Positions 11,756-63,037 of a DNA stretch of 64,000 nt are shown here, piece by piece. How positions within the stretch are numbered: the stretch's first letter is position 1; every line of letters starts with the position of its first letter. Position numbers and translations under genes: made by a program. The stretch spans positions 1,763 through 65,762 of the IMG/VR virus record IMGVR_UViG_3300025012_000083. One strand, given 5' to 3'. Below the pieces are notes generated by a model. It was given only the letters and a program-made list of their open reading frames with translations. It ran no database searches and had not been told where the DNA came from. This DNA is from a virus. Lineage: Duplodnaviria; Caudoviricetes.

Positions 11756-13078
11756 TTATGATGCTTTTACTAGGATGTTTAATTCTTTTGTAAGAATTAC
11801 TTCTATGTTTTTAAAATCCCAATAGGGGATACGAATTAGTTTTATATTGTGTTTTTTACAATAATCATCTTTAAGTTTGTCATGTATTTGTAATGTCTCA
11901 AAACCATCGTCTTCGTACTGTTTTTCATAATGAAATTCACCGTCATACTCAATTAACATTCTTAACATTGTTTTTTCTTCATCATAAAATATTGGCACGT
12001 CATACTTTAATAGTCCTCCACCAACCCCTCTTAGATCATTAAAAGTATATTGTGAACCATGTGGAACATTATGTTTAATTAATATAGCGTCTAATTGTTT
12101 TTCTCCTTTAGATTCAGAACATTTTGGACAACCAGTATTCGAAGATGTTCTACTATTTGGTTTTACTTTCCATTCATGATCACATTTCTTGCATTGCCAC
12201 CATATGTATTTTTCACTACCGTAAGTAACATCATAAGGAGTTAAATCACCATTCTTTGTCGGATGCCACTCAGAAGCAATTTCAGGAAATTTAGTCGCTA
12301 AACAATTAGACAAACCCACTTGTTTACTAGCACAAAAAGAACAACTACAACCACTTGAAATATTGTCCCATGTTTGATGGAATTTTTCTTTGCAACCTTC
12401 TTTTAAACATTGCCATTGAAGTTTTATACGATTATTTTTATATTCTGTACTTAACAATTCAAATGGTTTGCTATTTAACTTGCACCATAATTTTATATTT
12501 TGGATAGAATAAGGATTACTATCATCTGCTATATGAAGATTACTTAATTTTTTTAAGTCACTCCATGTTTTTGTGTATGTATATCCATAGCTATCTGTCA
12601 TTATTAATTTTATTTTATGATTAATAAATTCATTAAGTAAATTCAAATCTGGATAATTTTTATTTAAGAATAATTTAATATTCTGCGTTGAATAAATATT
12701 TTTCTCACTAACAAAAGCATGATTACTATCAATATTTTTATATAAGTTCCTCCAAGTTAAATTATAATAATATCCATCATCGTCACATAAAATTAAATGA
12801 GAATCTTCATTCTTATATTCATCAGATATTAAATAATATTTAATCTTATAATTTTTTAAAAATAGTTTTATGTTTTGTATAGAATATGGATTAGATGAAT
12901 GTACAAATTTTGGTCTTATACCATTACGAAATGAATTCCAAACAATTGTATAATAATAACCTTTATTATCTTTAATAATAAGTATTCCTTTACTTCCTGT
13001 ACATTCTTTACTGACCAGTTCATAACCAAATGACTTCAAATATATTCTAACATCATTTGTTTCCAATTTATTACTCAT
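11756..13078 (-). CDS. Free-standing endonuclease (zinc-ribbon repeats plus Vsr/PD-(D/E)XK-like C-terminus)
   Basis: Repeated NPYSIQNIK units, ASEWHPTKNG...WWQC..CDHEW Zn-ribbon, SKGE...IEYDGEFH...IRIPYW. Confidence 0.8.
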   Translation of the reverse strand: MSNKLETNDVRIYLKSFGYELVSKECTGSKGILIIKDNKGYYYTIVWNSFRNGIRPKFVHSSNPYSIQNIKLFLKNYKIKYYLISDEYKNEDSHLILCDDDGYYYNLTWRNLYKNIDSNHAFVSEKNIYSTQNIKLFLNKNYPDLNLLNEFINHKIKLIMTDSYGYTYTKTWSDLKKLSNLHIADDSNPYSIQNIKLWCKLNSKPFELLSTEYKNNRIKLQWQCLKEGCKEKFHQTWDNISSGCSCSFCASKQVGLSNCLATKFPEIASEWHPTKNGDLTPYDVTYGSEKYIWWQCKKCDHEWKVKPNSRTSSNTGCPKCSESKGEKQLDAILIKHNVPHGSQYTFNDLRGVGGGLLKYDVPIFYDEEKTMLRMLIEYDGEFHYEKQYEDDGFETLQIHDKLKDDYCKKHNIKLIRIPYWDFKNIEVILTKELNILVKAS

Positions 13079-13175
13079 ATTATATCTCCCTTCATATAGA
13101 AATCCCTAATATATTATAAAGTGGCAGGAAGTAGGGAAACTTCTTTTCGATCCGTCGATCTAGCCACAAAATTTT

Positions 13176-14795
13176 CTATCTAATATTACTTTCCTTATCC
13201 TGCCCAATAATCGTTGCGTCTGAAGGCGTAGAAGTCTTTGGTGCTCCTCCGGTATTGTCAGAATTTGTTGCTTGATTCATATTCACAGGAACACGCCAGT
13301 TTCCCTTAGATTTGGTCAGATTTTCATACTGTAATGTTGCATCGTAATCGCAATCTGTATGTCCAACTTTGCTTGACAAGACGCTTAACGAACCTCCGAT
13401 TGAAGTTAGTTTATATTCTTGTTCTATAGCCTCTGTTTGATTATACCAAGTGATTTTCCATATATTCAGTTTAAATGTGTACTTTTTCCTTAAATTTACA
13501 TTGCTTATGCGATAATTAAACCAACTTTGAATTTTATCAAGTATACTAAATACATTTGATTGAATATATACCAAGTTTTGAGTTACACCTACTGATGAAT
13601 TTGTACTAGAACCTCCAAGCAACAAAGGATTAGCTCCAGCTTGCATATATGCCATTGATTTTGCAAATTCAGCTAAACTTTCCTTTTCATTTTGCACACT
13701 TTTAAAAGAAATTTCTTCTAATTTGTAAGGACTACCGACCACGCAAACCGATTCTGGCAAACCTTGACTTACAACATCTACCCAAGAAGAAACGACTTCA
13801 GGTTCTACCAATGGGATGCCAGTTTCTTGGTCAGTCGGGAAATTAATGAAGACCATTTTTAATTTTTGATCCCTAGAACTCTCAATTTCTTCATCAATTA
13901 AATCATTTAACAAAAATAATTCTGTAAACAATTGACTATATAAAGGCAAGAAAAATGTATCATTATCTCCACCTAATTTAATACAACACACTTTTTCATT
14001 TGGCAAAGGTTGCCATTCAGGATATCTTAATTTATCAGGATTTTTTCTATACCTATCATACAAAATTTTAAATTCAGCAGGATATACTCCCCATGCAAAT
14101 TCAGATAATTCATTATCTCTTGATAAATCATCAAAATATTTGAAGTTAAACTCAACCTTATATTGTCCACTTTTTATTGAATATAATCTAATATACTTTA
14201 TTGGCAAATCCCATAGATAAGGAAAATCTCCATCGTTTTTCTCGAATCCACAATATGCACCGTATCTAACTATACTTTCAATAATTCTTCTTCCGGTTTT
14301 CTTTATATCAATATTTTCTATATAATCTCTAACTGTATCAAATTCATTTTCAAAATTGTTTAATATTTTATCAAACGCATCTTGATCTATTGGATTACCT
14401 AATTCATCAAATTTAGTTTTTGCTTTTAACTCTAAATTTAATTTTCTCATTGTTGATTTTGTTGGCTGAAGATAATTATCTAAAGTTGCCATATTTGAGG
14501 TTAGATTAACTAATGTTTTATATATTCCTTCAGGAGCATATAATAAATCAGATAAATCTAGAATTTCTGTTTGATATTTATTTGGATTATGTAACCATAA
14601 TTTTATTTTGTCTATTGTAATGTTTTTGTTGTTTTTTGTTGATTTTTTGTTAGAGAAAAATGAAGCAATACGAGATAATGAGAAGTTTTTTGATTTTGAT
14701 GGTTCCCATGATTCTTTTAATGCGAATAGGTTTGGAGAGAGTGGGGAGGAAGTTGGTGTTTTGTTTTGGTCTGACAAGGATTGACCTCCTTTCAT
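13176..14795 (-). CDS. Portal protein (YonE-like)
   Basis: 539 aa immediately downstream of the terminase large subunit. Confidence 0.75.
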   Translation of the reverse strand: MKGGQSLSDQNKTPTSSPLSPNLFALKESWEPSKSKNFSLSRIASFFSNKKSTKNNKNITIDKIKLWLHNPNKYQTEILDLSDLLYAPEGIYKTLVNLTSNMATLDNYLQPTKSTMRKLNLELKAKTKFDELGNPIDQDAFDKILNNFENEFDTVRDYIENIDIKKTGRRIIESIVRYGAYCGFEKNDGDFPYLWDLPIKYIRLYSIKSGQYKVEFNFKYFDDLSRDNELSEFAWGVYPAEFKILYDRYRKNPDKLRYPEWQPLPNEKVCCIKLGGDNDTFFLPLYSQLFTELFLLNDLIDEEIESSRDQKLKMVFINFPTDQETGIPLVEPEVVSSWVDVVSQGLPESVCVVGSPYKLEEISFKSVQNEKESLAEFAKSMAYMQAGANPLLLGGSSTNSSVGVTQNLVYIQSNVFSILDKIQSWFNYRISNVNLRKKYTFKLNIWKITWYNQTEAIEQEYKLTSIGGSLSVLSSKVGHTDCDYDATLQYENLTKSKGNWRVPVNMNQATNSDNTGGAPKTSTPSDATIIGQDKESNIR

Positions 14796-21271: not shown

Positions 21272-21414
21272 AATTAAATGCCTCCTTTAAATTTAAAATA
21301 TCAAATAAATTAAATAATCAAACCTAAATATTGAGCGTTAGCGAAATATTTAGAAAGAGGAACACGCTTGTTCCGATACACTTGCTCTCGTTGTGTGTTA
21401 TTATTTTTATTAAA

Positions 21415-21555
21415 TTATATCTCCACCCAATGCCCACAATCAGCACACCATAATATTGTCTTACCACAATAAAATTTCATCCAGAACCTATTTTTGAAGC
21501 ATATAGGGCATATTGTATTTTCGTTGATTGAATCATAAATATTAGTTTCTTTCAT
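21415..21555 (-). CDS. 46-aa zinc-ribbon peptide
   Basis: Not in ORF track: MKETNIYDSINENTICPICFKNRFWMKFYCGKTILWCADCGHWVEI, two CxxC pairs, upstream AGGAGG. Confidence 0.5.
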   Translation of the reverse strand: MKETNIYDSINENTICPICFKNRFWMKFYCGKTILWCADCGHWVEI

Positions 21556-21867
21556 TTTGTTTATTGTTTAATCCTCCTTATAGAGAATATACTATAAAAT
21601 ACAGTTTTTCTTGGATTGTTAAGTGATAGTTTTTATCTGGGATATACTATCAAACCCATTTAGTAAGTTATTGGGGAATCAACGGACTCCCCATATTTGA
21701 ATCAGCAATTTAAAATCTTCCCACTCGTGAAAGATATTTTTGTTAATAGAATAGAGAAGGGAGATATGGTAATTATGATAATATTATTTATCTCCCTTGT
21801 GTGACCACATCTAAATTTCTTTAGATGGACAATATAACGTGCCTAAAGCACAAACGACTTTTATATT

Positions 21868-22301
21868 ACTAACCAGAAAAGCAAGCAAAATAAGACTATT
21901 TTTCTTAATTAATTAATTATATTATCCATTTATTTATTAAAATCATCCTCTTGTTTCTAAGATAGTATCTTTTAAAATACTATATTTTTAATATTTGTTC
22001 TTCTAGTTAAGGATTGTTAATCCTAAAATTTATTTATGGCATGATTAGCGAAACGATTGTCGTATTTGCGTAATAATGAGACTAATGTTATATAGAATTT
22101 ACGAATAATGATTTTGTGTTTTGCGAAGCGGATTAGCGATTTTTCTTTTACTGTTAAGTAAAACCTGCTTGTTTATCAGTTTCAAATGTTTGAGAAATAT
22201 GTAAAGTTAAACTTACACAATCTTGCATTATTTGATATGTCTTATCTGTTTATATCACAGATTAGCTTTAAATAGTCTATCTTGCTTTGCTTCTGGCTAG
22301 T
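21868..22301 (-). ncRNA. Candidate ~430-nt structured ncRNA downstream of the 229-aa gene
   Basis: ACUAGCCAGAAGCAAAGCAAGAUAGACUAUU (22301-22271) pairs with AAUAGUCUUAUUUUGCUUGCUUUUCUGGUUAGU (21900-21868) with G-U wobbles on the minus strand; internal hairpins and short repeats; no ORF. Confidence 0.6.
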
Positions 22302-22365
22302 TTTTTAATAAGGGAAGTGTGGTTAGGCAATCCTCTTATTAACTGTCTTGGTTAAGATTCTTAGA

Positions 22366-23055
22366 TTAACTTTCTAAAGATGATAAATATTTCCCTACAA
22401 TATCAGCAGTTGAATCATGAATACTATAAGGAAATTCATACTCAACAATTTCTTCCATCATAGCTTTTTCAATAGAAATACTGAGTTTGTCAGCTTTTGC
22501 TAGTAATGCTTTGTAATTATCACTAACAATATTCCTATCAAAATTAATTGTTTTTGTAACTACTACATCATATCGATATGACGTTTCATTACCTTCTAGA
22601 TTAAATTTGAAGCCATTTTTCTGTGTCTTTTGTTCATCTGTCTTTATATTGATAAGACTATTTAATACATTAGCTAAATTCCTAGATTGTTTTGCATTTG
22701 ATATAGCAGAATCTAAACTAAGATTATTATTATCCTTAGTTTCAATTATTATATCTCTTTTAGCTATTTCTACTGAAATTTCTAATTTTGTCTTTTCTGC
22801 AATTAGATTTTGCACAAGATTAATGATATCAACTGTTGAAGCATCAGGATATTCTCTAATGGTAGTAGTATCTAGTTCCTCATTTTGTGCTTCTGGATTT
22901 GATTTTTCTTTAAAGTGTGATTCAATTACAGAAATAGAATTGTTTTTATTAGAAAGATAAGATGTTAGAGATGAAATAGTTTTATCAATATAAACCAATG
23001 TGCGAAAGGACTCTTTTAGTGAAATTGCGGATTGTGTATTTTGTGAATTAGACAT
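22366..23055 (-). CDS. Conserved helical/coiled-coil protein of unknown function
   Basis: 229 aa; SLKESFR start and GFKFNLEGNETSY...TINFDR motif. Confidence 0.75.
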   Translation of the reverse strand: MSNSQNTQSAISLKESFRTLVYIDKTISSLTSYLSNKNNSISVIESHFKEKSNPEAQNEELDTTTIREYPDASTVDIINLVQNLIAEKTKLEISVEIAKRDIIIETKDNNNLSLDSAISNAKQSRNLANVLNSLINIKTDEQKTQKNGFKFNLEGNETSYRYDVVVTKTINFDRNIVSDNYKALLAKADKLSISIEKAMMEEIVEYEFPYSIHDSTADIVGKYLSSLES

Positions 23056-23119
23056 ATTTGTTATTTCCTTCTTTCAATTGTTAATTTTATTTTTTGTTAG
23101 AGTAATTAACTCAATTATT

Positions 23120-23635
23120 ATTATGAAGGAATTAGTAGCTTGAGCAGATCATATTTTTCAATATAATCTTACATAATTCCTTCACAATACAAGCAAAAAT
23201 GCATCCATAAACCTCATACTCTTTATCAGAGCAATGCCTGTCTTTCAAGGTCTTACTAACTTATGCACATGATTTTAGGGAAGGTTCGCAATTGCACTAG
23301 CGTTGACCTAATTTTATCAAACCCTAAAATAAGTTTTTATTGTTGCTGTTTTGGTTTATGCAATTTCCAAAAATCATCACCACAACAATTTATAGAGGGA
23401 AATAAAAGATTGCTCTCATGAGCATGTAATAGATGATATCAGACCACAATAGTAAGGCGGTGTATCTTACATCTCAGATACTCTTTCGAGTGCGTCAGGA
23501 ACCATTTCTGACCTTATTGTAGTTAATTAAGGTAACTGCCAATGAATCGCCAAACTCACCATATCTGTAAGAGATATTTAATCTCTAGAAATATCCTGCA
23601 ATTAAACCATCACCTATCTGAGTGATATCACTTTT
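23120..23635 (-). ncRNA. Candidate multi-domain structured RNA(s)
   Basis: ORF-free, dense nested stems, ACUC-GAAA-GAGU tetraloop, possible pseudoknot CUCAGAU/AUCUGAG. Confidence 0.45.
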
Positions 23636-23639
23636 TATC

Positions 23640-23825
23640 TTACTCTTCTTCTTCAGTATCCTCAGATTCCCCATCTAAAGACAAATACTGATCACAACCA
23701 TTGATTGTAATATCTAAAATTCCAGCTTGCTTTTTTGTACCTTCTAGTTTATATAGTTTAGTTGACCATTCACATACACTAGCTTTTACACAAGATTCAC
23801 AGAATTGATTATTTAAATTAGCCAT
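23640..23825 (-). CDS. Small Cys-containing acidic protein
   Basis: 61 aa, CESC...C...C, RBS present. Confidence 0.55.
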   Translation of the reverse strand: MANLNNQFCESCVKASVCEWSTKLYKLEGTKKQAGILDITINGCDQYLSLDGESEDTEEEE

Positions 23826-26145: not shown

Positions 26146-28752
26146 TTAGCTAACTGGTAAAGTATTTTTCTTATGATAGTACCTTAATGCCTTTTCTCTA
26201 TTTTGTTGTTCACGAATACTTTTCCAACATTCATTACAATATTTAGTTTGATTATTAATAGTCTGTTCAATCCTTTCTCCGCAAACTTCACAAAGCATAG
26301 AATTTTCTGCAATATTTTTATTTAAATTCTCAATAATTACATCTCCAAAACACTCCCATAACGTAGTTTTATAATTAGCCTTTTTATGTATATATAAATA
26401 TTCAACTAGCACATCAACCACATAATTTACATCACTATTTATTTTAAGTATCTCATTTCTAATTTCTTTGTATAAATATACTGAATTTCCTGCTTCATCA
26501 TTAGATACCTTTGTAATCATAAAATGATTTTTTAAATCTAATTCAGTATATTTTTTAATTATCTCATCATTTTGTTCTATTTTTTTATTATTCATAAGCA
26601 TCTTGTAATTAAATTTTCCTAAATTCAGTGCATTGTAATTAATATTAGGATTTGGAATAATCTTTTCAAGTTTATTTACTACACTATTATTGATTTTCTC
26701 TACTTTATCTTTTTCTTTATCTTTGGCATATATAAAAAAATGAGGTGTTTTTGATTTAGTGTAACCACTAATTAATTTATGTTTGTCATCTGGTCTTTCT
26801 GGTTTATATAGCGTTTTAGCAAAATCAATGACAAAGTTTGATTCCATACATAGAAGTTTAATTGCATCTAGATTTACATTTTCACTATTCCATATCTTTG
26901 TAATATTGTTACTCACCATTCCAATATTTCCACCAGTATAAGCAGTTTTCAAACCATTATAAATACTATTGTTAGTAATTAATTCTGCTGATGCTTTTCT
27001 CATGTTATAATATAAGGGAACAATGTCTATCATATTGCGTTCTGCAACCTCAATCAGTGTGTGATCTGCTACTACTAAACTTTTGTCTCCATCCCAATCA
27101 TTTTGTAAAATCTTAGATATTAAATCATGACATGAATTATATAATCCTTTCGTGATAAACCATTTGCACTTTTCTTCCTCTATTGTATTATTTCTAACTG
27201 CCCACTCTCTATAAAGATGCGGTGATCTTAAACATGCTAATTTTGGTTTATCTTTATATAGATTACAATAAACTTCACCGTCATTTAATAAACCTTTTGG
27301 ATTTAATTCTCCTTTTATTAAATACTCACAAAAAGCATACATATCAGGAATTATGAATGTGTACTTACCATTAACATCTAATTTTCCTGCTCTAGCATTT
27401 TTAACCATACTTTTTTTCACTTGTTTTAATATTTCTTTACTATATGTATCATTTAATAATTCAGGATAAATTACCAATGCTTGTTGAATATAATTCTTGT
27501 TCACATTTGTTTTAGTAACTCCTAAAACTTTCAGCATTGTTTTTCTATCCTTACCTATGTTTACAATATTGTTCTTAGTTTGTTTTGCGACTTCCTCTAA
27601 TTCTTCATCAGACATACATGTAAGCGTCTGCAATGTTTGATAATTAATTTTTGCATTTCCTATAATATCTTCCTCTTCATTACACATTCCTGCTTGGCAA
27701 TTATATTTTTTATAATTTTCTACATATTGCTCCCAACTTTCAAAATACTTATACATCTTGAATTGACTTTTACAAAAGATAACCTCTATTTTTTCTTTTA
27801 AAATATCATGTTCTACGCCATAAATATCTTTTACTATACCATATTTCTTCCCGTCTTCGTTTTTATTTGCTTCTCTTATGAATTTATCGAAAGGGAAGGG
27901 GGTAATTAACCCCTTCACCCAAGGCAAGCGAATCATTGTACTCTTTCTTGTTTTACTAGGCAATATCATCCCAATACCATCCGTATGAGAAATTGGTACA
28001 TCCATTTTCTTTCTATTTATAGAATAAGTTTCATCATCTATAAGATCGACAGTTCCATTAACCATAGATTCAAAATCTTCTACTACAATTGACTTATCAA
28101 TATTAAATCCTTGCCATATATCTGTCGCAGAATTTGAAAGAGCTAGATAACTCAAATATTTATTTATATTTGCCCCACCAAGTTTATTAATAATATCAAT
28201 TGTCAATCCACACATTAAAGTATTTTGATGTTTACGTAGTGAACTTTCCTTAATAAATACTGTCTTTTTTGTGCGAATTTGTCCAGCACTTGCTGTCAAA
28301 CAAACATATTTTTCATTTCCATACATATACCCATCTAATATTATATCCTCGATTACATCAAAGAAAAATGTTTGTACAATCATAATATCAGTTGATAACG
28401 TATTTTCTGGAATCTGCATTGTTCTAGTTAATACAGAATCAAATATTGAAATTATATTTCTCTTGTTTAGTGATTCTGGTCTCAAATTTCTTATTCCTGT
28501 ATTTTTATTAAACTCGATATACAGTTTATCTTTCAGTTTCTTTATCATTTTATTGGCGTTTGACATATGTTTAGTATAATATTTACTCAATTCTTTATTT
28601 TCTTTTTTGCCTTTTAGTTTTTTTCTTTTTTTATTTAATTCAAATTTATATTTATATAATCTACCCAAATATTTATGTATTCTTGCTTCATCTTTATTGT
28701 AGAATGAGCTTGTATCAACAGAGTAGATATGTACTTGTTTATTAAGATTTAT
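26146..28752 (-). CDS. yonO: YonO-like single-subunit (double-psi beta-barrel) RNA polymerase
   Basis: Catalytic NDWDGD (DxDGD), RSPH, SAGQIR and TDG motifs; frame stays open 28 codons upstream of the tracked start to an ATA at 28752 with GAGGAG RBS (INLNKQVHIYSVDTSSFY). Confidence 0.85.
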   Translation of the reverse strand: MNLNKQVHIYSVDTSSFYNKDEARIHKYLGRLYKYKFELNKKRKKLKGKKENKELSKYYTKHMSNANKMIKKLKDKLYIEFNKNTGIRNLRPESLNKRNIISIFDSVLTRTMQIPENTLSTDIMIVQTFFFDVIEDIILDGYMYGNEKYVCLTASAGQIRTKKTVFIKESSLRKHQNTLMCGLTIDIINKLGGANINKYLSYLALSNSATDIWQGFNIDKSIVVEDFESMVNGTVDLIDDETYSINRKKMDVPISHTDGIGMILPSKTRKSTMIRLPWVKGLITPFPFDKFIREANKNEDGKKYGIVKDIYGVEHDILKEKIEVIFCKSQFKMYKYFESWEQYVENYKKYNCQAGMCNEEEDIIGNAKINYQTLQTLTCMSDEELEEVAKQTKNNIVNIGKDRKTMLKVLGVTKTNVNKNYIQQALVIYPELLNDTYSKEILKQVKKSMVKNARAGKLDVNGKYTFIIPDMYAFCEYLIKGELNPKGLLNDGEVYCNLYKDKPKLACLRSPHLYREWAVRNNTIEEEKCKWFITKGLYNSCHDLISKILQNDWDGDKSLVVADHTLIEVAERNMIDIVPLYYNMRKASAELITNNSIYNGLKTAYTGGNIGMVSNNITKIWNSENVNLDAIKLLCMESNFVIDFAKTLYKPERPDDKHKLISGYTKSKTPHFFIYAKDKEKDKVEKINNSVVNKLEKIIPNPNINYNALNLGKFNYKMLMNNKKIEQNDEIIKKYTELDLKNHFMITKVSNDEAGNSVYLYKEIRNEILKINSDVNYVVDVLVEYLYIHKKANYKTTLWECFGDVIIENLNKNIAENSMLCEVCGERIEQTINNQTKYCNECWKSIREQQNREKALRYYHKKNTLPVS

Positions 28753-28775: not shown

Positions 28776-29774
28776 TTATTTTTTAATTATAGAATTAAGG
28801 AACTCATTCAAATTTGTATGTATGTAATTATAATACCAATCTTTATCTTGAAATATTTTTCTGCCATTATAGTAGTCAAGTCTAAACAAAGGTATATTAT
28901 TATCTTCACAATATTTATCTTTAATATGATCTCTTTCTCTTGCCCTTACTCTTCTTGGTTGTGTATGATTATATCTATGTTCTTCATCATCTATTTCTAC
29001 TAATCCTAGTAATTTATTATCATCATCTAATATCCCAAAATCATATTTTAAGTGTTCACCATTTTCACCCATTAAATCATCAAAAGTATATTGTACTCTA
29101 ATATTATGATTAGGATAATTATCTATTAAATAATCATAAGGAACTTTTTCAGAATAAGGTAGGTTGCAAATTGGACACCACCTACCTTTCCTAAGATTTA
29201 AAGGCATTATATCCCAAATATAATTATGCTCATTACATTTTACTGACAAATGTATTCCTGCACCTTCATATGTACCTAACAATGTTCCATTTTTACTATT
29301 TACTATGTCTTCCATTTCTTTTTGAAATTCTCCAGTTCGTCCATAGCAAGCAGGACACCATTGAGGTTTATTCAGTAAACTATCTGCATTACTAAAGAAG
29401 TTTGGGTGTCCATCTACTTTACAATCTACTTCATATAAATCTTTTGCTATAGTCCATTCTGTGCTTATTAGTTCACCTCCCATCGACCTACAATATTCCT
29501 GTAATCTTTTATATTGATAAGTTTTATCTTTTATTGCTAGAGTTGCTTTTAAACTCTTCAATTCTATATCACATTTTTTACAAGGTTGAAAACATTTTGC
29601 TAATACATTTTTAGCATTTAAAGTTTTATATGTATCGCCATGTTTTTCACAATGATAGACAAAATCTATTGGTTCTGTACCTCCTAGATATTCACTTAAT
29701 ATTTCTACTTTATCACCACGTTTTGCGAATACTTTCTGCTTATATGTGTCTGTGCTTTGTAATTTTACTCCCAA
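28776..29774 (-). CDS. Free-standing endonuclease (Zn-ribbon repeats plus PD-(D/E)XK-like domain)
   Basis: WCPAC and WCPIC repeats; QYTFDDL...YDF...VEIDDEEH...KDKYC. Confidence 0.7.
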   Translation of the reverse strand: MGVKLQSTDTYKQKVFAKRGDKVEILSEYLGGTEPIDFVYHCEKHGDTYKTLNAKNVLAKCFQPCKKCDIELKSLKATLAIKDKTYQYKRLQEYCRSMGGELISTEWTIAKDLYEVDCKVDGHPNFFSNADSLLNKPQWCPACYGRTGEFQKEMEDIVNSKNGTLLGTYEGAGIHLSVKCNEHNYIWDIMPLNLRKGRWCPICNLPYSEKVPYDYLIDNYPNHNIRVQYTFDDLMGENGEHLKYDFGILDDDNKLLGLVEIDDEEHRYNHTQPRRVRARERDHIKDKYCEDNNIPLFRLDYYNGRKIFQDKDWYYNYIHTNLNEFLNSIIKK

Positions 29775-35797: not shown

Positions 35798-36010
35798 CTA
35801 TCTTTTCTTAATAATCCAACTAATCTTATTCGCCTTCACGCAAGTATGAACATCAAATTTAGTTCTCAATACCTTACCATTAGCCCACCATTCATTCTTT
35901 AACCAATCTAATTGTTTCTGAGTTGCAGGTTCATATTTCCACTTTGCTTTTCTGTCTAGGAATGTACTATATTTTCTAGATGCATATTTCTCTGCTTCTT
36001 CAATAAGATT
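35798..36010 (-). pseudogene. C-terminal remnant of an SF2 helicase-like gene
   Basis: Start-less open frame NLIEEAEKYASRKYSTFLDRKAKWKYEPATQKQLDWL...KKR*. Confidence 0.5.
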
Positions 36011-37580
36011 AAACTTCTTTATTATAATATTTCCAGATCAATTTTTCTCCTGTTTCTAAAGTTCCTGCTGATTTAGCCTTACCTCTACAACATGCGGATA
36101 TTCCAGAAACACTGTTTAAATTATATCTCTTGATTGCATCAGTTATAGAATTAAAAATTTCTCCAGTTGTTACACAAATAACCTCTTTATTATTTGTTGC
36201 TATTGATTTAGTATTATTTATACAATCTTCATGATATTTCCATTCTAAATGAATACCTGTAATTGGACAAATTACATATTGCTTAAACCCTGAACAGCAT
36301 TCTGAAATAAAGTCGGATTTAATTTTATATTTTTTACCTGCTTCAGAAATACTTTTAAAAATTTCTCCGGTAGTAGTGCAAACTATCTTTTTCATGTTAG
36401 AATTATAATTACACCATCCAAGCTTTACTCCTTTATGTAAATAACTTCTTATAGTCGTTGTAGATAATTTATAGATTTCTGCCAATTCTGAAATAGTACG
36501 CTTACCATTGTCCCAAATTATACATATTTCTTTAACTAAATTCTTTAACGCAAACTCTTCACATTTTATCCAATCTACTAGTTCAAGGTCAAATATTGTA
36601 TTTAGTTTAGATTTAATTATATTACTCTTTATGTATTCCAAATCAGAAAAGGCACAATCAATTCTAATCACTTCTATATCATGCTCTTTTGCTATATTGT
36701 CCTTATTTTCATCTATAAGCTTTGATTCTTCCTTGGTTTGTCCAGACATTTTATTATCTACCTTATGCCATCTACCGTCCATTTCAACAGCATATTTATT
36801 ATTATCTAATTCAAAATAGAAGTCGAATCTCATTTCTTTAAAAGTATGTTCTGATTTGAAATCTACATTTAACTGTTCTAATACACTAAATCCTATTTTA
36901 TTAGGATAACTAATTTTATCACCGCATGAACACCCTATGGATTTATTTTTATATATAGAATATATACTTATAGGTTTGTCTTTAATTCTACCGCAATCTG
37001 GACAGATTGGAACGATCTTTTGTTTAGTACCCTTAATATACAATTTTGCTTCATCATAACCTCCTTGAAAATATTTAACCATCCAAGGATCTGTAGTTGT
37101 AATATCATTAATTCCAACAACTAGTTTTAGAGGATTAACACCACATACATTACAACCATTTTTCTCTTTTAAATGATTTTCTGCAATAGAATCTTCATTC
37201 CCACAATTTAAACATAAATAATCATACCCCTTTCTATTATTATTTCCCATTCTTATTTGTTTTATTATTTGTAATTTCCCACTTCTAGTTTCGATGATGT
37301 CGTCTATTTTATATATATGTTCAAAACTATAATTTCCTAAATATAATTCAAATTTGCATTTAGCAAACCAACCGGAATACATATTAAATTCTTTTTATTT
37401 ATCATTACCAATATAAAAATATATTTGCCTATTTTTAAAATCATTGATATGAAATATGTAGTTGTTATTATTGAACTCTATTTGTAAATCCATTCCTATA
37501 ATTTCTTTCCATTTTACTTTTCCTATATTAAAACCACTTGTCCATTTTGGCAATTCTGTAAGTATTTTATTATTATACAT
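36009..37580 (-). pseudogene. Homing endonuclease-like gene (Zn ribbons, Vsr-like nuclease, NUMOD1) split by an in-frame TAA
   Basis: 61-aa and 457-aa ORFs are in the same frame: ...GNDK*KEFNMYSGW...; EMDGRWH and ICVTTGEIFNSI motifs. Confidence 0.65.
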
Positions 37581-60482: not shown

Positions 60483-60555
60483 TCTTGCAGAGTGGTAGAG
60501 CGTATAACAAAACGCTCTATTAATGCACAAGACAGGTCACAAGTCCTGTTAAGAT
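60482..60555 (+). ncRNA. Twister ribozyme (type P5)
   Basis: GCA-GAGUG-GUAGAGCGU/ACGCUCUAU-U^AA-UGC-AC-AA-GACAG-GUCACAAGUC-CUGUU; GUG/CAC and AC/GU pseudoknot pairs; AUCU/AGAU closing stem. Confidence 0.8.
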
Positions 60556-60580: not shown

Positions 60581-63037
60581 ATGTCCAAATCTCTTCAAAC
60601 TTTAAAAACCAACATTACTAAAGGCTCACAAAGACTTTCCAAAACTACTATTAAAAACATCGTAAATGCCGGAGAATTTGATAAAATTGAACTTGCCTAT
60701 TCTTACGATGGCAGAGAAGTCCACAAAGGGACTTTGATCGAAAATCCTGTTGAATGGTTCAATAAAGAGTATGAATTATTGGACGTTCGGCTCTACAAGG
60801 TAGAAAAAGGTTTAGTTTTAATTCATTTGCAATTCCATTCTAACCTATGGTATGCTCTACATATTGACTTAAATAAAAACTATGAAACAACCAACGCACC
60901 AGGAGTTAAAGCAGAAAATAAAGTTCAAGATGTTCAAGTAACGGAAACAAAAACCTATCTTGACACAATGCAAAGCAAATTCAAAACAGGAGAAGGAACA
61001 GCAGAGGAACTAAGATCCTATTATACTTATTTAATTGAAAATGTTGATTCTGTAAAAGTTGTAATTCTTGACATGCTGAACAATTCAGAACAACACAAAC
61101 GGAAACGTGCAAATACTAAAGCGGAATTGACTGAGGATTGCTATAACAACATGGTAGAGGCTCTTGTATATCATGTTAAAGACACTTTATCTTACCAGAT
61201 GGATTTTACTGATATCAAAGGAGCAAGACAAAGAGCTATCAAGACAATTCTTGATTCTGCTACTGACGAAATGATACAAACCCAATATACCAAAAACAAA
61301 GCAGAGAAAGAAGAAAGAACAGTACAAAGAAAGGAATTAATTGAAGGGATTACAAATCCCCAAACCCTAGAGGATTTCCATAATGTCAAATATTATCGCA
61401 ATGACAAAAACTTGACCATTGAAGAACAACAGCGTTTTGATCATATTTATTCAATCTCTCAGAAAGTAAAGAGAGAAAAAGAACAGCAGGAGCGAAAAGA
61501 AAAAGCACTTGCAACAGTTGTCGGATCAAATGACATGTACGCTATAACAGCAGACGTTGACACACGCGACAATTCTCCTCTATGGGTTGTAAAACTCATA
61601 AATACTCTTAGTAAAGATGAATGGAGAATTCATGATTCACAAATGAAATTAATTAGCGGTTATTATTCAAGATTCAAAAAAGGCCACATTTTCAAGTATG
61701 ACCCAACATCTAAATTATTAGGAGAACAGTCTGAAGAAAACCAAGTAGAACAGTTGGAAGAAATCCAAGCATCTAGCAATAACAGCGACAAACTACGCAA
61801 GGTAGCAGACAACATGCAAAACACAATTGACAACAAAAGAGCAAACATACTGACAAATACTGCAAGAAGAGCAAGAATGGCAATAGGTCAAGAAGAGCAA
61901 GCAGACACATTAGAACAAATGCAGGGAGTTTTGCGAAATATTGCAAATGCTATTGAATATGGTGAATTAACATTTATTAATCTTATTGATTCTAGGACAC
62001 AAGTTGACACACTAGAAAGCATTCTTAATCGTGCAAACTGGAAATATAAATCAGTTGAAAATATTGATTATAATGTATGGCATAATTCTCCAATAACAAC
62101 AGACATTATTAGGTTCGCAGAAATTCCCTCAAGTACAATTTATCTTCGTCAATTACAGTCTATTATTAATGATATTCGCAATACTGACGGTTTTAAACTC
62201 ATTGCAAACCGATTGCAAAAACTAATTGACAATGCAAAATTAAAGCAAAAAGATCCTCACCATGACCCACTAATTGATATTTCAGATTATGATGCTGAAC
62301 TTGATAAGATTTACAAAAATACTGATGTTTTGTACAATCAATATTTTGAAACCGCAATCGAAGAACGCAGGAGATTATCAAGAATGGGCATAGAATCAGT
62401 TGAAGAATTAAGGGAATATCTAAGGGAATACTTCAATTATCGAACCGTTAAAAGCTCAATTGACCCAACTCAACAAAAAATTAAAGAGTTGGAAAGAAAA
62501 TTCAAGTTCGATCAAAAAGGAGATACTTTCTTTACTCCTTCAGACATTGCCCTTCAAATGATTGAATTGGCCGACATATCTAATAACAGCAGAGTTCTTG
62601 AACCTTCAGCCGGAATTGGAAATATTGCAGACCAAATTCAAAAGTTTGTTGACAATGTTGATGTTTGTGAACAGATGTATTCATACCAAGAACTGTTAAC
62701 TCTCAAAGGTTTTAATGTTGTAGGAAGTGACTTCCTGAAGTATGAAAATAACAATTATTACGACTGTGTGATAATGAATCCCCCATTTTCAGCAGAACAG
62801 GATCACATTAAACATGCTTATGATCTTCTTAAGGTTGGTGGAAAACTCATTGCAATTACTTCGCCGCATTGGACTTTTGCCAATGACAAATCATCAAAAG
62901 AATTCCGTCAATGGTTCGAGAATTTGAATGGTGAAATTGTAGAAGAATTAGAGTCAGGAACTTTTGAGATGACACAAGTTAGATCAAATATAATTGTCAT
63001 TAATAAAGACACTGAGACCATGCAAAAGGCTGTATAA
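60581..63037 (+). CDS. Large protein with C-terminal N6-adenine methyltransferase domain
   Basis: FFTP, VLEPSAGIGNI and IMNPPF motifs in the last ~190 aa; long helical N-terminal region. Confidence 0.8.
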   Translation: MSKSLQTLKTNITKGSQRLSKTTIKNIVNAGEFDKIELAYSYDGREVHKGTLIENPVEWFNKEYELLDVRLYKVEKGLVLIHLQFHSNLWYALHIDLNKNYETTNAPGVKAENKVQDVQVTETKTYLDTMQSKFKTGEGTAEELRSYYTYLIENVDSVKVVILDMLNNSEQHKRKRANTKAELTEDCYNNMVEALVYHVKDTLSYQMDFTDIKGARQRAIKTILDSATDEMIQTQYTKNKAEKEERTVQRKELIEGITNPQTLEDFHNVKYYRNDKNLTIEEQQRFDHIYSISQKVKREKEQQERKEKALATVVGSNDMYAITADVDTRDNSPLWVVKLINTLSKDEWRIHDSQMKLISGYYSRFKKGHIFKYDPTSKLLGEQSEENQVEQLEEIQASSNNSDKLRKVADNMQNTIDNKRANILTNTARRARMAIGQEEQADTLEQMQGVLRNIANAIEYGELTFINLIDSRTQVDTLESILNRANWKYKSVENIDYNVWHNSPITTDIIRFAEIPSSTIYLRQLQSIINDIRNTDGFKLIANRLQKLIDNAKLKQKDPHHDPLIDISDYDAELDKIYKNTDVLYNQYFETAIEERRRLSRMGIESVEELREYLREYFNYRTVKSSIDPTQQKIKELERKFKFDQKGDTFFTPSDIALQMIELADISNNSRVLEPSAGIGNIADQIQKFVDNVDVCEQMYSYQELLTLKGFNVVGSDFLKYENNNYYDCVIMNPPFSAEQDHIKHAYDLLKVGGKLIAITSPHWTFANDKSSKEFRQWFENLNGEIVEELESGTFEMTQVRSNIIVINKDTETMQKAV

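What the first reader, a model, noticed from the sequence alone, without database searches (positions are those of the whole stretch)
21868..23055. 229-aa helical protein plus downstream ~430-nt RNA closed by a long-range stem: candidate protein-ncRNA module
Seen: about 65 nt after the stop codon, past one hairpin at 22305-22342, a ~30-bp imperfect stem joins 22301-22271 with 21900-21868. Its mismatches are G-U wobbles only on the minus strand, the same strand as the gene. Inside are small hairpins (AUCUGU/ACAGAU, AGGAUU/AAUCCU, UAGUAU/AUACUA) and a ~110-nt G-poor core (22035-22145) of short degenerate repeats (UCGCUAAUC x2, CAUUAUU(A)CG x2, CGCAAA x2). No RT or nuclease motif is visible in the protein. 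From memory, unverified, similar proteins (LKEAFR start, GY.FN.EGNQ..Y...TI.FDR motif) in Bacillota mobile elements are followed by similar stem-closed, CG-repeat-containing regions. Inference: a self-contained ribonucleoprotein in which the repeats are multivalent binding sites (scaffold, sponge, or type III toxin-antitoxin-like pair).
Basis: partly seen in the sequence, partly recalled or inferred. Interest (0 to 1): 0.8.

Follow-up and report, generated by a model that had tools for sequence, protein, structure and literature searches.

The report
Phage protein gene with partner RNA
A phage gene for a small protein of unknown function is almost always followed by a large, intricately folded RNA of about 400 bases, a pairing that recurs in hundreds of phages and gut bacteria and matched no catalogued RNA or protein family.

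Summary
The window is part of a 65.8-kb phage record. The 229-aa gene at 22366-23055 (-), here called X, is followed by a 434-nt element at 21868-22302 (-) closed by a bulged stem of about 33 nt per arm.

The same architecture follows X homologues in 57 of 63 assessable distinct phage loci, down to 25% protein identity. Alignments of 20 and 113 distant elements show heavy compensatory change in a closing stem of 26-30 bp, an inner stem and an H-type pseudoknot. G-U outnumbers A-C about five to one on the gene strand, so this is an RNA, not a DNA repeat.

The G-poor core is a quasi-periodic array of CpG spaced 7-8 nt.

A scan with the RNA motif alone found an X homologue directly upstream in 84 of 84 viral and 103 of 104 bacterial-genome loci, while other neighbours differ.

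Neither Rfam 15 nor Pfam, PHROGs, PADLOC or PDB sequences name the RNA or the protein. The best fold match is a protein of unknown function.

That X binds the RNA is my inference and is untested. No expression data were available. I rate it a new class of large phage RNA with a dedicated protein gene.

The parts
22366..23055 (-). Gene X: 229-aa acidic alpha/beta protein of an unnamed phage family
   Evidence: ORF. 526 homologue clusters at E<=0.001. No Pfam, PHROG or PADLOC family. AF2 pLDDT 95.8. pI 4.97.
23160..23187 (-). Candidate sigma-70-like promoter upstream of X (weak consensus match only)
   Evidence: TTGTGA, 16-nt spacer, TATATT, 9 of 12. Such matches were fewer than in shuffles, so this is only a candidate.
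22305..22342 (-). Hairpin H0 between the stop codon and P1, with conserved loop UGCCUAACCACA; seen only in the window's close relatives
   Evidence: stem pairs keep pairing through changes on both sides (columns 15-21 with 47-54); loop nearly invariant in 14 sequences.
22270..22302 (-). P1 closing stem, 5' arm
22241..22263 (-). Hairpin H1 (AUCUGU/ACAGAU), at the place where distant members carry stem S2 of the pseudoknot
   Evidence: columns 114-121 with 129-136. The positional homology with S2 is my inference from L016-L019.
22198..22219 (-). Hairpin H2
   Evidence: fold; coordinates. Partly replaced in relatives.
22145..22165 (-). Hairpin H3 (UUUUAC/GUAAAA)
   Evidence: Relatives carry UUUGC/GCAAG at the same place (read by eye; not counted with a tool).
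22038..22141 (-). G-poor, C-rich single-stranded core with CpG-centred short repeats about 7-8 nt apart; its 3' end CGACAAUCGUUUCGCUAAUC resembles the ACG(U/C)UUC motif of distant members
   Evidence: consensus.
22007..22028 (-). Hairpin H4 (AGGAUU/AAUCCU)
   Evidence: Relatives have a different hairpin at this place.
21946..21984 (-). Hairpins H5 (UAGUAU/AUACUA) and H6 (UCUU/AAGA)
   Evidence: columns 460-462 with 473-475 change on both sides.
21922..21935 (-). AAAUAAAUGGAUAA: the window's counterpart of the conserved 3' junction motif AAAUUGG / AAAAUGG
   Evidence: consensus AAAnTGGTTGAA. Assigning the window's copy to this motif is inference.
21868..21901 (-). P1 closing stem, 3' arm; end of the conserved element
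   Evidence: A strain variant in DNA runs joins 21664 to 21867, next to this edge.
21829..21852 (-). Terminator-like hairpin 16 nt after P1
   Evidence: In relatives, 31 of 112 have such a hairpin within 60 nt after P1, against 6 of 104 control windows.

Best explanation
This is a two-part module: gene X plus a large structured RNA read from the same strand directly after it.

Shown:
- The RNA has a median length of about 410 nt (434 nt in the window).
- It is closed by a stem of 26-30 bp (P1).
- An inner stem (P3) leads to a junction that in most members holds a compact H-type pseudoknot.
- Peripheral hairpins vary between members.
- In its middle it displays about 100 nt of G-poor, C-rich sequence in which CpG recurs every 7-8 nt.
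- Gene and RNA are inherited together across very different phages and mobile elements.

Inferred:
- X and the RNA are made as one transcript. P1 starts a median of 16 nt after the stop codon, and a terminator or tRNA genes often follow.
- The long perfect stem marks and protects a discrete stable RNA, probably after cutting by a double-strand-specific RNase such as RNase III.
- Several copies of X, or X with a host factor, bind the periodic single-stranded array, one unit per protomer. This gives a ribonucleoprotein that acts in trans in the infected cell.

The target of that particle is unknown. Its place among early or middle genes and tRNA genes points to host takeover or RNA metabolism rather than virion structure.
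For: RNA nature and fold:
- Closing helices are far above shuffles in 57 of 63 assessable distinct loci.
- In A5 (20 elements), 25 of 26 P1 pairs change on both sides, 96.1% of cells are paired, and 0 of 500 shuffles reach this; slid controls give 37-41%.
- In A6 (113 elements under 90% identical), 20 of 20 outer P1 pairs are compensatory.
- Pseudoknot: 95.9% paired, 7 of 11 pairs changed on both sides, 0 of 500 shuffles.
- Strand: G-U 84 against A-C 19, and 288 against 56.

Coupling of gene and RNA:
- X to RNA: 57 of 63 loci.
- RNA motif to X: 84 of 84 viral loci and 103 of 104 genome loci.
- In 115 genome loci with any hit, X is found in 114, but HU in 2 and RNAP and PhoH in 1 each.

Co-transcription:
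- Stop-to-P1 gap has a median of 16 nt, IQR 11-24, in 103 representatives.
- A terminator-like hairpin follows P1 in 31 of 112, against 6 of 104 controls.

Periodic array:
- CpG pairs at lags 7 and 8 number 124 and 122, against 26-47 at lags 4, 6, 9 and 10. Peaks recur at 15-16 and 22-24.
- 809 of 1691 core G lie in CpG, against 1720 of 8348 outside the core.

Protein: a confident fold with conserved K14, R18, H47, K99, N152, Y160 and Y162.
Against: - No direct evidence that X binds RNA.
- X is acidic (median pI 5.15, net charge -7) and has no recognisable RNA-binding domain.
- No transcript data; only DNA runs hold the stretch.
- RNase III cutting is assumed from the stem's length alone.
- Tight linkage would also arise if the RNA were a cis element of the X mRNA.
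- Exceptions exist. L040/L041 and L054 have X but no closing stem. L025 has an internal deletion. One genome locus, L260, has the motif without a detected X.
- An HMM of the distant family does not hit the window's AT-rich copy. The window's membership rests on protein homology, position, architecture and bridging loci.
- The loci were collected with a pattern that fixes much of the pseudoknot, and elements were kept only if P1 scored 15 or more. High pairing in A6 is therefore partly by construction.
Confidence: 0.45

Rival explanations
1. The RNA works on its own or with a host factor, as a decoy or sponge for a host RNA-binding protein or nuclease, or as an RNA-only assembly like ROOL and GOLLD. 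X is linked because both serve one pathway or share one transcript, not because X binds the RNA.
For: - The phage setting and nearby tRNA genes resemble what is written for GOLLD and ROOL (passages of PMC5737381). tRNA genes lie within 1 kb in 22 of 65 loci, at three times the local density.
- X is acidic.
- A G-poor, evenly spaced array suits a multivalent decoy.
Against: - Near-perfect reciprocal linkage across unrelated genomic contexts is more than shared transcription usually gives.
- ROOL and GOLLD have no fixed partner gene (recalled, and from the same passages).
Confidence: 0.25
2. The element is a cis-acting 3' untranslated region of the X mRNA. It would be a stabiliser against 3' exonucleases, a Rho-loading or anti-termination site (the core is C-rich and G-poor like a rut site), or a translational feedback site.
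For: - It starts a median of 16 nt after the stop.
- The core has C 33.5 against G 15 per 110 nt.
- It is never found apart from X.
Against: - A stabiliser or rut site does not need about 400 nt with a conserved pseudoknot, junction motifs and a 27-bp clamp.
- Terminators often follow it rather than lie inside it.
- Known autoregulatory sites lie at the 5' end (general knowledge).
Confidence: 0.12
3. The RNA is a ribozyme or self-processing RNA, and the long stem brings its ends together.
For: - Size, a pseudoknot and invariant junction nucleotides are typical of ribozymes.
- The window carries another ribozyme, twister-P5.
Against: - No Rfam ribozyme family matches, even at E<=10.
- The most conserved long stretch is unpaired and repetitive, which is unusual for a catalytic core.
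Confidence: 0.08
4. It is a DNA-level element: an invertible segment, a replication origin with iterons, a packaging site or a miniature transposon bounded by inverted repeats.
For: - Inverted repeats of about 30 bp flank about 400 bp.
- Short direct repeats lie in the middle.
- The terminase and portal genes are 5-9 kb away.
Against: - Mismatches are G-T on the gene strand about five times as often as A-C.
- Pseudoknot covariation is present.
- Orientation relative to X is the same in every locus aligned.
- The 7-8 nt period does not fit the DNA helical repeat.
Confidence: 0.05
5. It is a type III toxin-antitoxin-like pair, in which X is a toxin neutralised by the repeat RNA.
For: A protein gene lies next to a repeat-bearing RNA in mobile elements.
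Against: - The gene order is reversed.
- There are no tandem units of about 36 nt (one search lists no tandem family in the core).
- X has no PADLOC or Pfam hit and a helical fold unlike the recalled ToxN fold.
Confidence: 0.03

Closest known systems
ROOL and GOLLD RNAs (large ornate phage-associated RNAs; Rfam)
   Same: Large, multi-helix, pseudoknotted RNAs. They occur in phages and prophages of Firmicutes from gut and rumen, often beside tRNA genes, and their function is unknown (passages of PMC5737381).
   Different: No Rfam 15 model matches. This RNA is shorter (median about 410 nt against 581 nt for ROOL). It is always preceded by one protein gene. It has a long clamp stem and an unpaired periodic CpG array.
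Dedicated RNA-protein pairs such as OLE RNA with OapA/B/C, or Y RNA with Ro (Rsr)
   Same: A structured non-coding RNA is encoded next to its partner protein gene and inherited with it. Y RNAs also close with a long stem formed by their two ends (recalled).
   Different: X is not related to TROVE/Ro or Oap proteins (no Pfam hit). Binding is not shown here. The RNA architecture is unrelated.
TRAP and similar ring proteins that wrap evenly spaced short RNA repeats
   Same: A single-stranded run of about a dozen short units at a fixed spacing would suit one protomer per unit. This is an analogy of mechanism only.
   Different: The unit is 7-8 nt centred on CpG, not GAG/UAG triplets. X has a different, helical fold. 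Its oligomeric state is unknown.
PDB 3kdq (Corynebacterium diphtheriae protein of unknown function)

Membership tests
ROOL RNA / GOLLD RNA (Rfam) | Match to the family covariance model | tested here: not met
   Gathering-threshold cmscan of the window and 22 loci found none. E<=10 scans of the window region and of two distant elements found none.
ROOL RNA / GOLLD RNA (Rfam) | Phage or prophage setting near tRNA genes | tested here: met
   Viral contigs. tRNA genes within 1 kb in 22 of 65 loci, 0.415 against 0.141 per kb. This is a resemblance of context only.
Type III toxin-antitoxin (ToxIN-like) | Tandem antitoxin RNA repeats upstream of the toxin gene, separated by a terminator | tested here: not met
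   The RNA lies downstream of the gene. Repeats are degenerate units of 7-8 nt inside a folded RNA.
Type III toxin-antitoxin (ToxIN-like) | Toxin of the ToxN/AbiQ endoribonuclease family | tested here: not met
   No Pfam or PADLOC hit for X or six homologues.
Retron / reverse-transcriptase-associated RNA | Adjacent reverse transcriptase gene | tested here: not met
   No RT among the conserved neighbours.
Invertible DNA segment (inverton) | Both orientations present; a recombinase nearby | tested here: not met
   One orientation in all aligned loci. No recombinase among the conserved neighbours. No strand-changing joint in 4 DNA runs, but contigs can hide rare forms.
Known universal structured RNAs (tmRNA, RNase P RNA, SRP RNA, 6S RNA, group I/II introns) | Match to an Rfam or ARAGORN model | tested here: not met
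   ARAGORN found no tRNA or tmRNA in the window. Rfam found none.
Ro/Y RNA module | TROVE-domain Ro protein beside the RNA | tested here: not met
   X has no Pfam family.
phi29-type packaging RNA (pRNA) | RNA of about 170 nt in phi29-like phages that binds the portal | not testable with these tools
   No Rfam match. Binding to a portal cannot be tested here. Portal and terminase genes lie 5-9 kb from the element.

The most novel reading that the evidence does not exclude
X and its RNA form a new kind of phage ribonucleoprotein. A clamp stem and pseudoknot hold out a loop of about a dozen CpG-centred 7-8-nt units, and these are coated by an X oligomer. The particle acts on host RNA metabolism or defence. 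It is spread through large lytic-type phages and small mobile elements of gut and rumen Firmicutes.
Probability: 0.35. Interest if true: 0.9.

Novelty: categorically new. Interest (0 to 1): 0.82.

Why it matters
Large, elaborately folded bacterial and phage RNAs are rare, and most have led to new biochemistry. This one is abundant. I found at least 100 viral and at least 120 bacterial-genome stretches, and the protein family has 526 clusters at 50% identity. It is present in cultured gut isolates such as Dysosmobacter, Faecalibacterium, Blautia, Flavonifractor and Neglectibacter.

Unlike ROOL and GOLLD, it comes with a fixed protein partner gene. That gives an immediate experimental handle: co-expression, pull-down and cryo-EM. 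The evenly spaced CpG array held in a clamped loop is an arrangement that I could not match to any described RNA.

The finding also supplies a testable function for a large family of phage proteins that is so far unannotated.

Tried and rejected
Database and structure searches that gave no name:
- Rfam: no family for the element in the window, in 22 loci, or at E<=10 in three scans.
- Phage GenBank records: blastn of 21300-23700 hit only the skipping-rope RNA. tblastn with X found nothing.
- The first genome-contig scan, with peptide patterns, found nothing.
- Pfam, PHROGs, PADLOC and PDB sequences gave no family for X.
- Foldseek against pdb and BFVD gave nothing at E<=0.001.
- The ESM Atlas gave only unnamed phage clusters, with leads to DUF7873 and DUF6847. 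One homologue hits DUF6847 at E 0.013, below the cut-off.

Context and target searches:
- Neighbour genes in bacterial loci are mostly unannotated: one NinI-like phosphatase and one integrase fragment.
- Skipping-rope RNA is not a regular neighbour; it occurs in 1 of 11 close loci.
- A search of the window for a target complementary to the core gave only chance-level short matches.
- An HMM of the distant family gave no hit in the window at E<=10.

Method notes:
- RNAduplex output was too loose to read, so I replaced it with helix scans.
- The minimum-G window measure was uninformative in AT-rich members, so I replaced it with C-minus-G.
- The shuffles do not keep CpG counts. I therefore compare peak lags with neighbouring observed lags.

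Expression and DNA runs:
- No RNA holder was listed for the stretch.
- DNA contigs of 4 runs show no strand-changing joint. Contigs cannot exclude rare forms.

Literature:
- Searches found no description.
- I read passages of PMC5737381, PMC10690425, PMC8040213 and 10.64898/2026.10.21.760802, and the outline and abstract of 10.64898/2026.09.22.753630.
- The large catalogues of unnamed candidate RNAs (PMC10690425, PMC8040213) may list parts of this element in supplements that I could not open.

Rows dropped before counts:
- Duplicate loci were removed: 79 loci became 65 distinct.
- Loci with under 700 nt downstream were left out: 2 of 65.
- Loci with under 750 nt upstream of the motif were left out: 15 viral and 16 genome loci.
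- Elements with P1 score under 15 or too near a locus end were left out.
- Sequences 90% or more identical were collapsed: 160 became 112.

Full report
**What the window is.**
The window is 64 kb of a 65.8-kb IMG/VR virus record that CheckV rates 42% complete. It is AT-rich, 26-34% G+C.

On the minus strand the genes run in this order:
- a helicase;
- homing endonucleases;
- a YonO-like single-subunit RNA polymerase (PF05183, phrog_8308);
- a PIN-PhoH protein;
- an HU protein;
- a skipping-rope RNA;
- the 229-aa gene, here called X;
- about 810 nt without any ORF of 40 aa or more;
- small DUF5659 genes, an HTH gene and an anti-repressor-like gene;
- then terminase and portal.

X occupies 22366-23055 (-). 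A hairpin lies at 22342-22305. Then 22302-22270 pairs with 21901-21868, enclosing 434 nt.

The minus-strand fold closes with this stem, at -86.5 kcal/mol and z -4.85, with 0 of 100 shuffles as good. The plus strand gives z -2.15. A terminator-like hairpin follows 16 nt later.

In the window alone the stem is bulged. It beats shuffles only when gaps are allowed. The case therefore rests on comparison with relatives.

**Close relatives.**
X has 27 homologues in the word-indexed search and 526 clusters at 50% identity in the exhaustive one. All are about 200-235 aa and none is named.

The search for related loci gave 79 viral loci at 25-88% identity, of which 65 are distinct.

In the window's group, the roughly 495 nt after the stop codon stay 70-76% identical. 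This holds even where the protein is only 44-47% identical (L021, L022, L026, L027). The similarity ends at the 3' arm of the stem.

A strain variant in DNA runs joins 21664 to 21867, the same edge.

RNAalifold on 14 close sequences keeps the first hairpin, the closing stem and two inner hairpins. Of 47 predicted pairs, 15 change on both sides.

**Distant relatives.**
Most loci with 25-35% protein identity have no detectable nucleotide similarity to the window; only L070 gave a weak nhmmer hit. A near-perfect helix nevertheless starts a few bases after the stop and closes 390-520 nt. Helix scores are 18-36, against shuffle maxima of 10-17. In all, 57 of 63 assessable distinct loci pass.

The six that fail are these:
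- L016, L018 and L019 have weaker stems at the same place and are homologous by nhmmer.
- L025 has an internal deletion.
- L040 and L054 have no stem.

**Covariation.**
- In alignment A5 (20 distant elements), 25 of 26 P1 pairs change on both sides and 96.1% of cells pair. The whole structure reaches 93.3%, against 73.2% in shuffles (0 of 500) and 37-41% when slid.
- An inner stem (P3) is solid over its 5 inner pairs.
- Next to it sits an H-type pseudoknot. S1 is GCUUC/GAAGU or GGUUC/GAACU. S2 is NNGCAG/CUGCNN. The loops are 1-2, 1-2 and 6 nt. It is 95.9% paired, with 7 of 11 pairs changed on both sides and 0 of 500 shuffles reaching this.
- In A6 (113 elements under 90% identical), all 20 outer P1 pairs are compensatory. 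The S1 pair that the search pattern left free is complementary in 113 of 113 rows. The free S2 pair at columns 89/111 is paired in 113 of 113.

Caveat: these loci were gathered with a pattern that fixes most of the pseudoknot and were kept only if P1 was found. The invariant pairs and the high overall pairing are therefore partly built in. The compensatory changes and the slid controls are not.

**RNA, not DNA.**
In the closing stems, G-U outnumbers A-C by 84 to 19 in 33 loci, and by 288 to 56 in 112 representatives. The pseudoknot and the fixed orientation relative to X in every aligned locus point the same way.

**The core.**
About a third of the way along the element lies a stretch of about 110 nt with a median of C 33.5 and G 15. 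There, 809 of 1691 G stand in CpG, against 1720 of 8348 outside the core.

CpG positions are periodic. There are 124 and 122 pairs at lags 7 and 8, against 26-47 at lags 4, 6, 9 and 10. Further peaks lie at 15-16 and 22-24.

In the window's group the unit reads roughly AUUCGCUAAUC. The end of the core, ACG(U/C)UUC, recurs from the window to the most distant members.

A second type of 5' domain replaces the pseudoknot in L042, L046, L066, L069, L070 and L079 (read by eye).

**Linkage.**
I scanned with the RNA's pseudoknot motif alone.
- Viral contigs gave 100 stretches.
They are mostly gut and rumen Clostridia and Negativicutes, including cultured isolates.

An X homologue lies within 1.3 kb upstream in 84 of 84 viral loci and 103 of 104 genome loci that have enough sequence.

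In the genome loci the phage neighbours of the window are missing. HU is found in 2 loci, and RNAP and PhoH in 1 each, out of 115. The gene and the RNA therefore travel as a pair.

P1 starts a median of 16 nt after the stop. A terminator-like hairpin follows P1 in 31 of 112 representatives, against 6 of 104 control windows.

tRNA genes, all on the same strand, lie within 1 kb in 22 of 65 loci.

**The protein.**
AlphaFold2 gives a confident model, with pLDDT 95.8 and pTM 0.79. It has four long helices and a long beta-hairpin at residues 140-168 that carries the conserved FN.EGNQ..Y.Y.

X is acidic, with a median pI of 5.15. I count this against a simple RNA-binding role, though it does not exclude a local binding surface.

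**What is known.**
No Rfam 15 family matches, even at E<=10. Five literature searches and the passages I read name nothing like it. Unnamed candidates in closed supplements may overlap it.

The nearest kinds are the large phage RNAs ROOL and GOLLD, which share the context but have no partner gene, and RNA-protein pairs such as OLE/Oap or Y RNA/Ro, which share the logic but have unrelated parts.

**Verdict.**
That this is a real, widespread structured RNA tied to gene X I hold at about 0.95. That it is undescribed, about 0.7. That X binds its periodic core to form a ribonucleoprotein, 0.45.

Noticed in passing
window 23444-23522 (-): Skipping-rope RNA (RF02924, 68.1 bits), followed by a terminator-like hairpin at 23424-23411, just upstream of gene X. 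It is present in only 1 of 11 close relatives scanned (L001), so it is not part of the module.
   Followed up: partly
window 60486-60548 (+): Type-P5 twister ribozyme (RF02684, 58.6 bits), directly upstream of an 818-aa methyltransferase-like gene at 60581-63037.
   Followed up: no
window 13104-13170 (-): int-alpA RNA (RF02996, 46.8 bits), between the portal gene (13176-14795) and an HNH or homing-endonuclease gene (11756-13078).
   Followed up: no
window 26146-28668 (-): An 840-aa YonO-like single-subunit RNA polymerase (PF05183 RdRP, phrog_8308 at E 6e-280). PIN-PhoH and HU genes follow it. This order recurs in 23-30 of 65 related loci.
   Followed up: partly
window 11756-13078, 28776-29774, 36009-37382 (-): Three related HNH or homing-endonuclease genes (phrog_559, 9084, 4538) are scattered through the phage.
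   Followed up: no
window 21664-21867: In two DNA runs a more abundant strain variant replaces these 202 bases with 8 other letters. The joint lies at the 3' edge of the RNA's closing stem.
   Followed up: partly
L042, L046, L066, L069, L070, L079 (first 100 nt of the element): A second type of 5' domain replaces the pseudoknot: a GACAG..CG..CUGU hairpin followed by a hairpin with an AGCGAU loop. This was read by eye and not counted with a tool.
   Followed up: no
L040/L041 and L054: X homologues without any closing stem downstream. In L040 a 93-aa ORF starts 21 nt after the stop. These may be natural cases of X without the RNA.
   Followed up: no
L180-L299, about 0.5-1.6 kb after the motif: In bacterial-genome loci, two small unannotated proteins often follow the RNA on the same strand. 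One of about 117 aa occurs in 37 of 120 loci, and one of about 128 aa in 21 of 120 loci. Neither has a Pfam or PHROG family.
   Followed up: partly
window 21415-21555 (-): A 46-aa ORF with two CxxC pairs (zinc-ribbon-like), downstream of the element.
   Followed up: no
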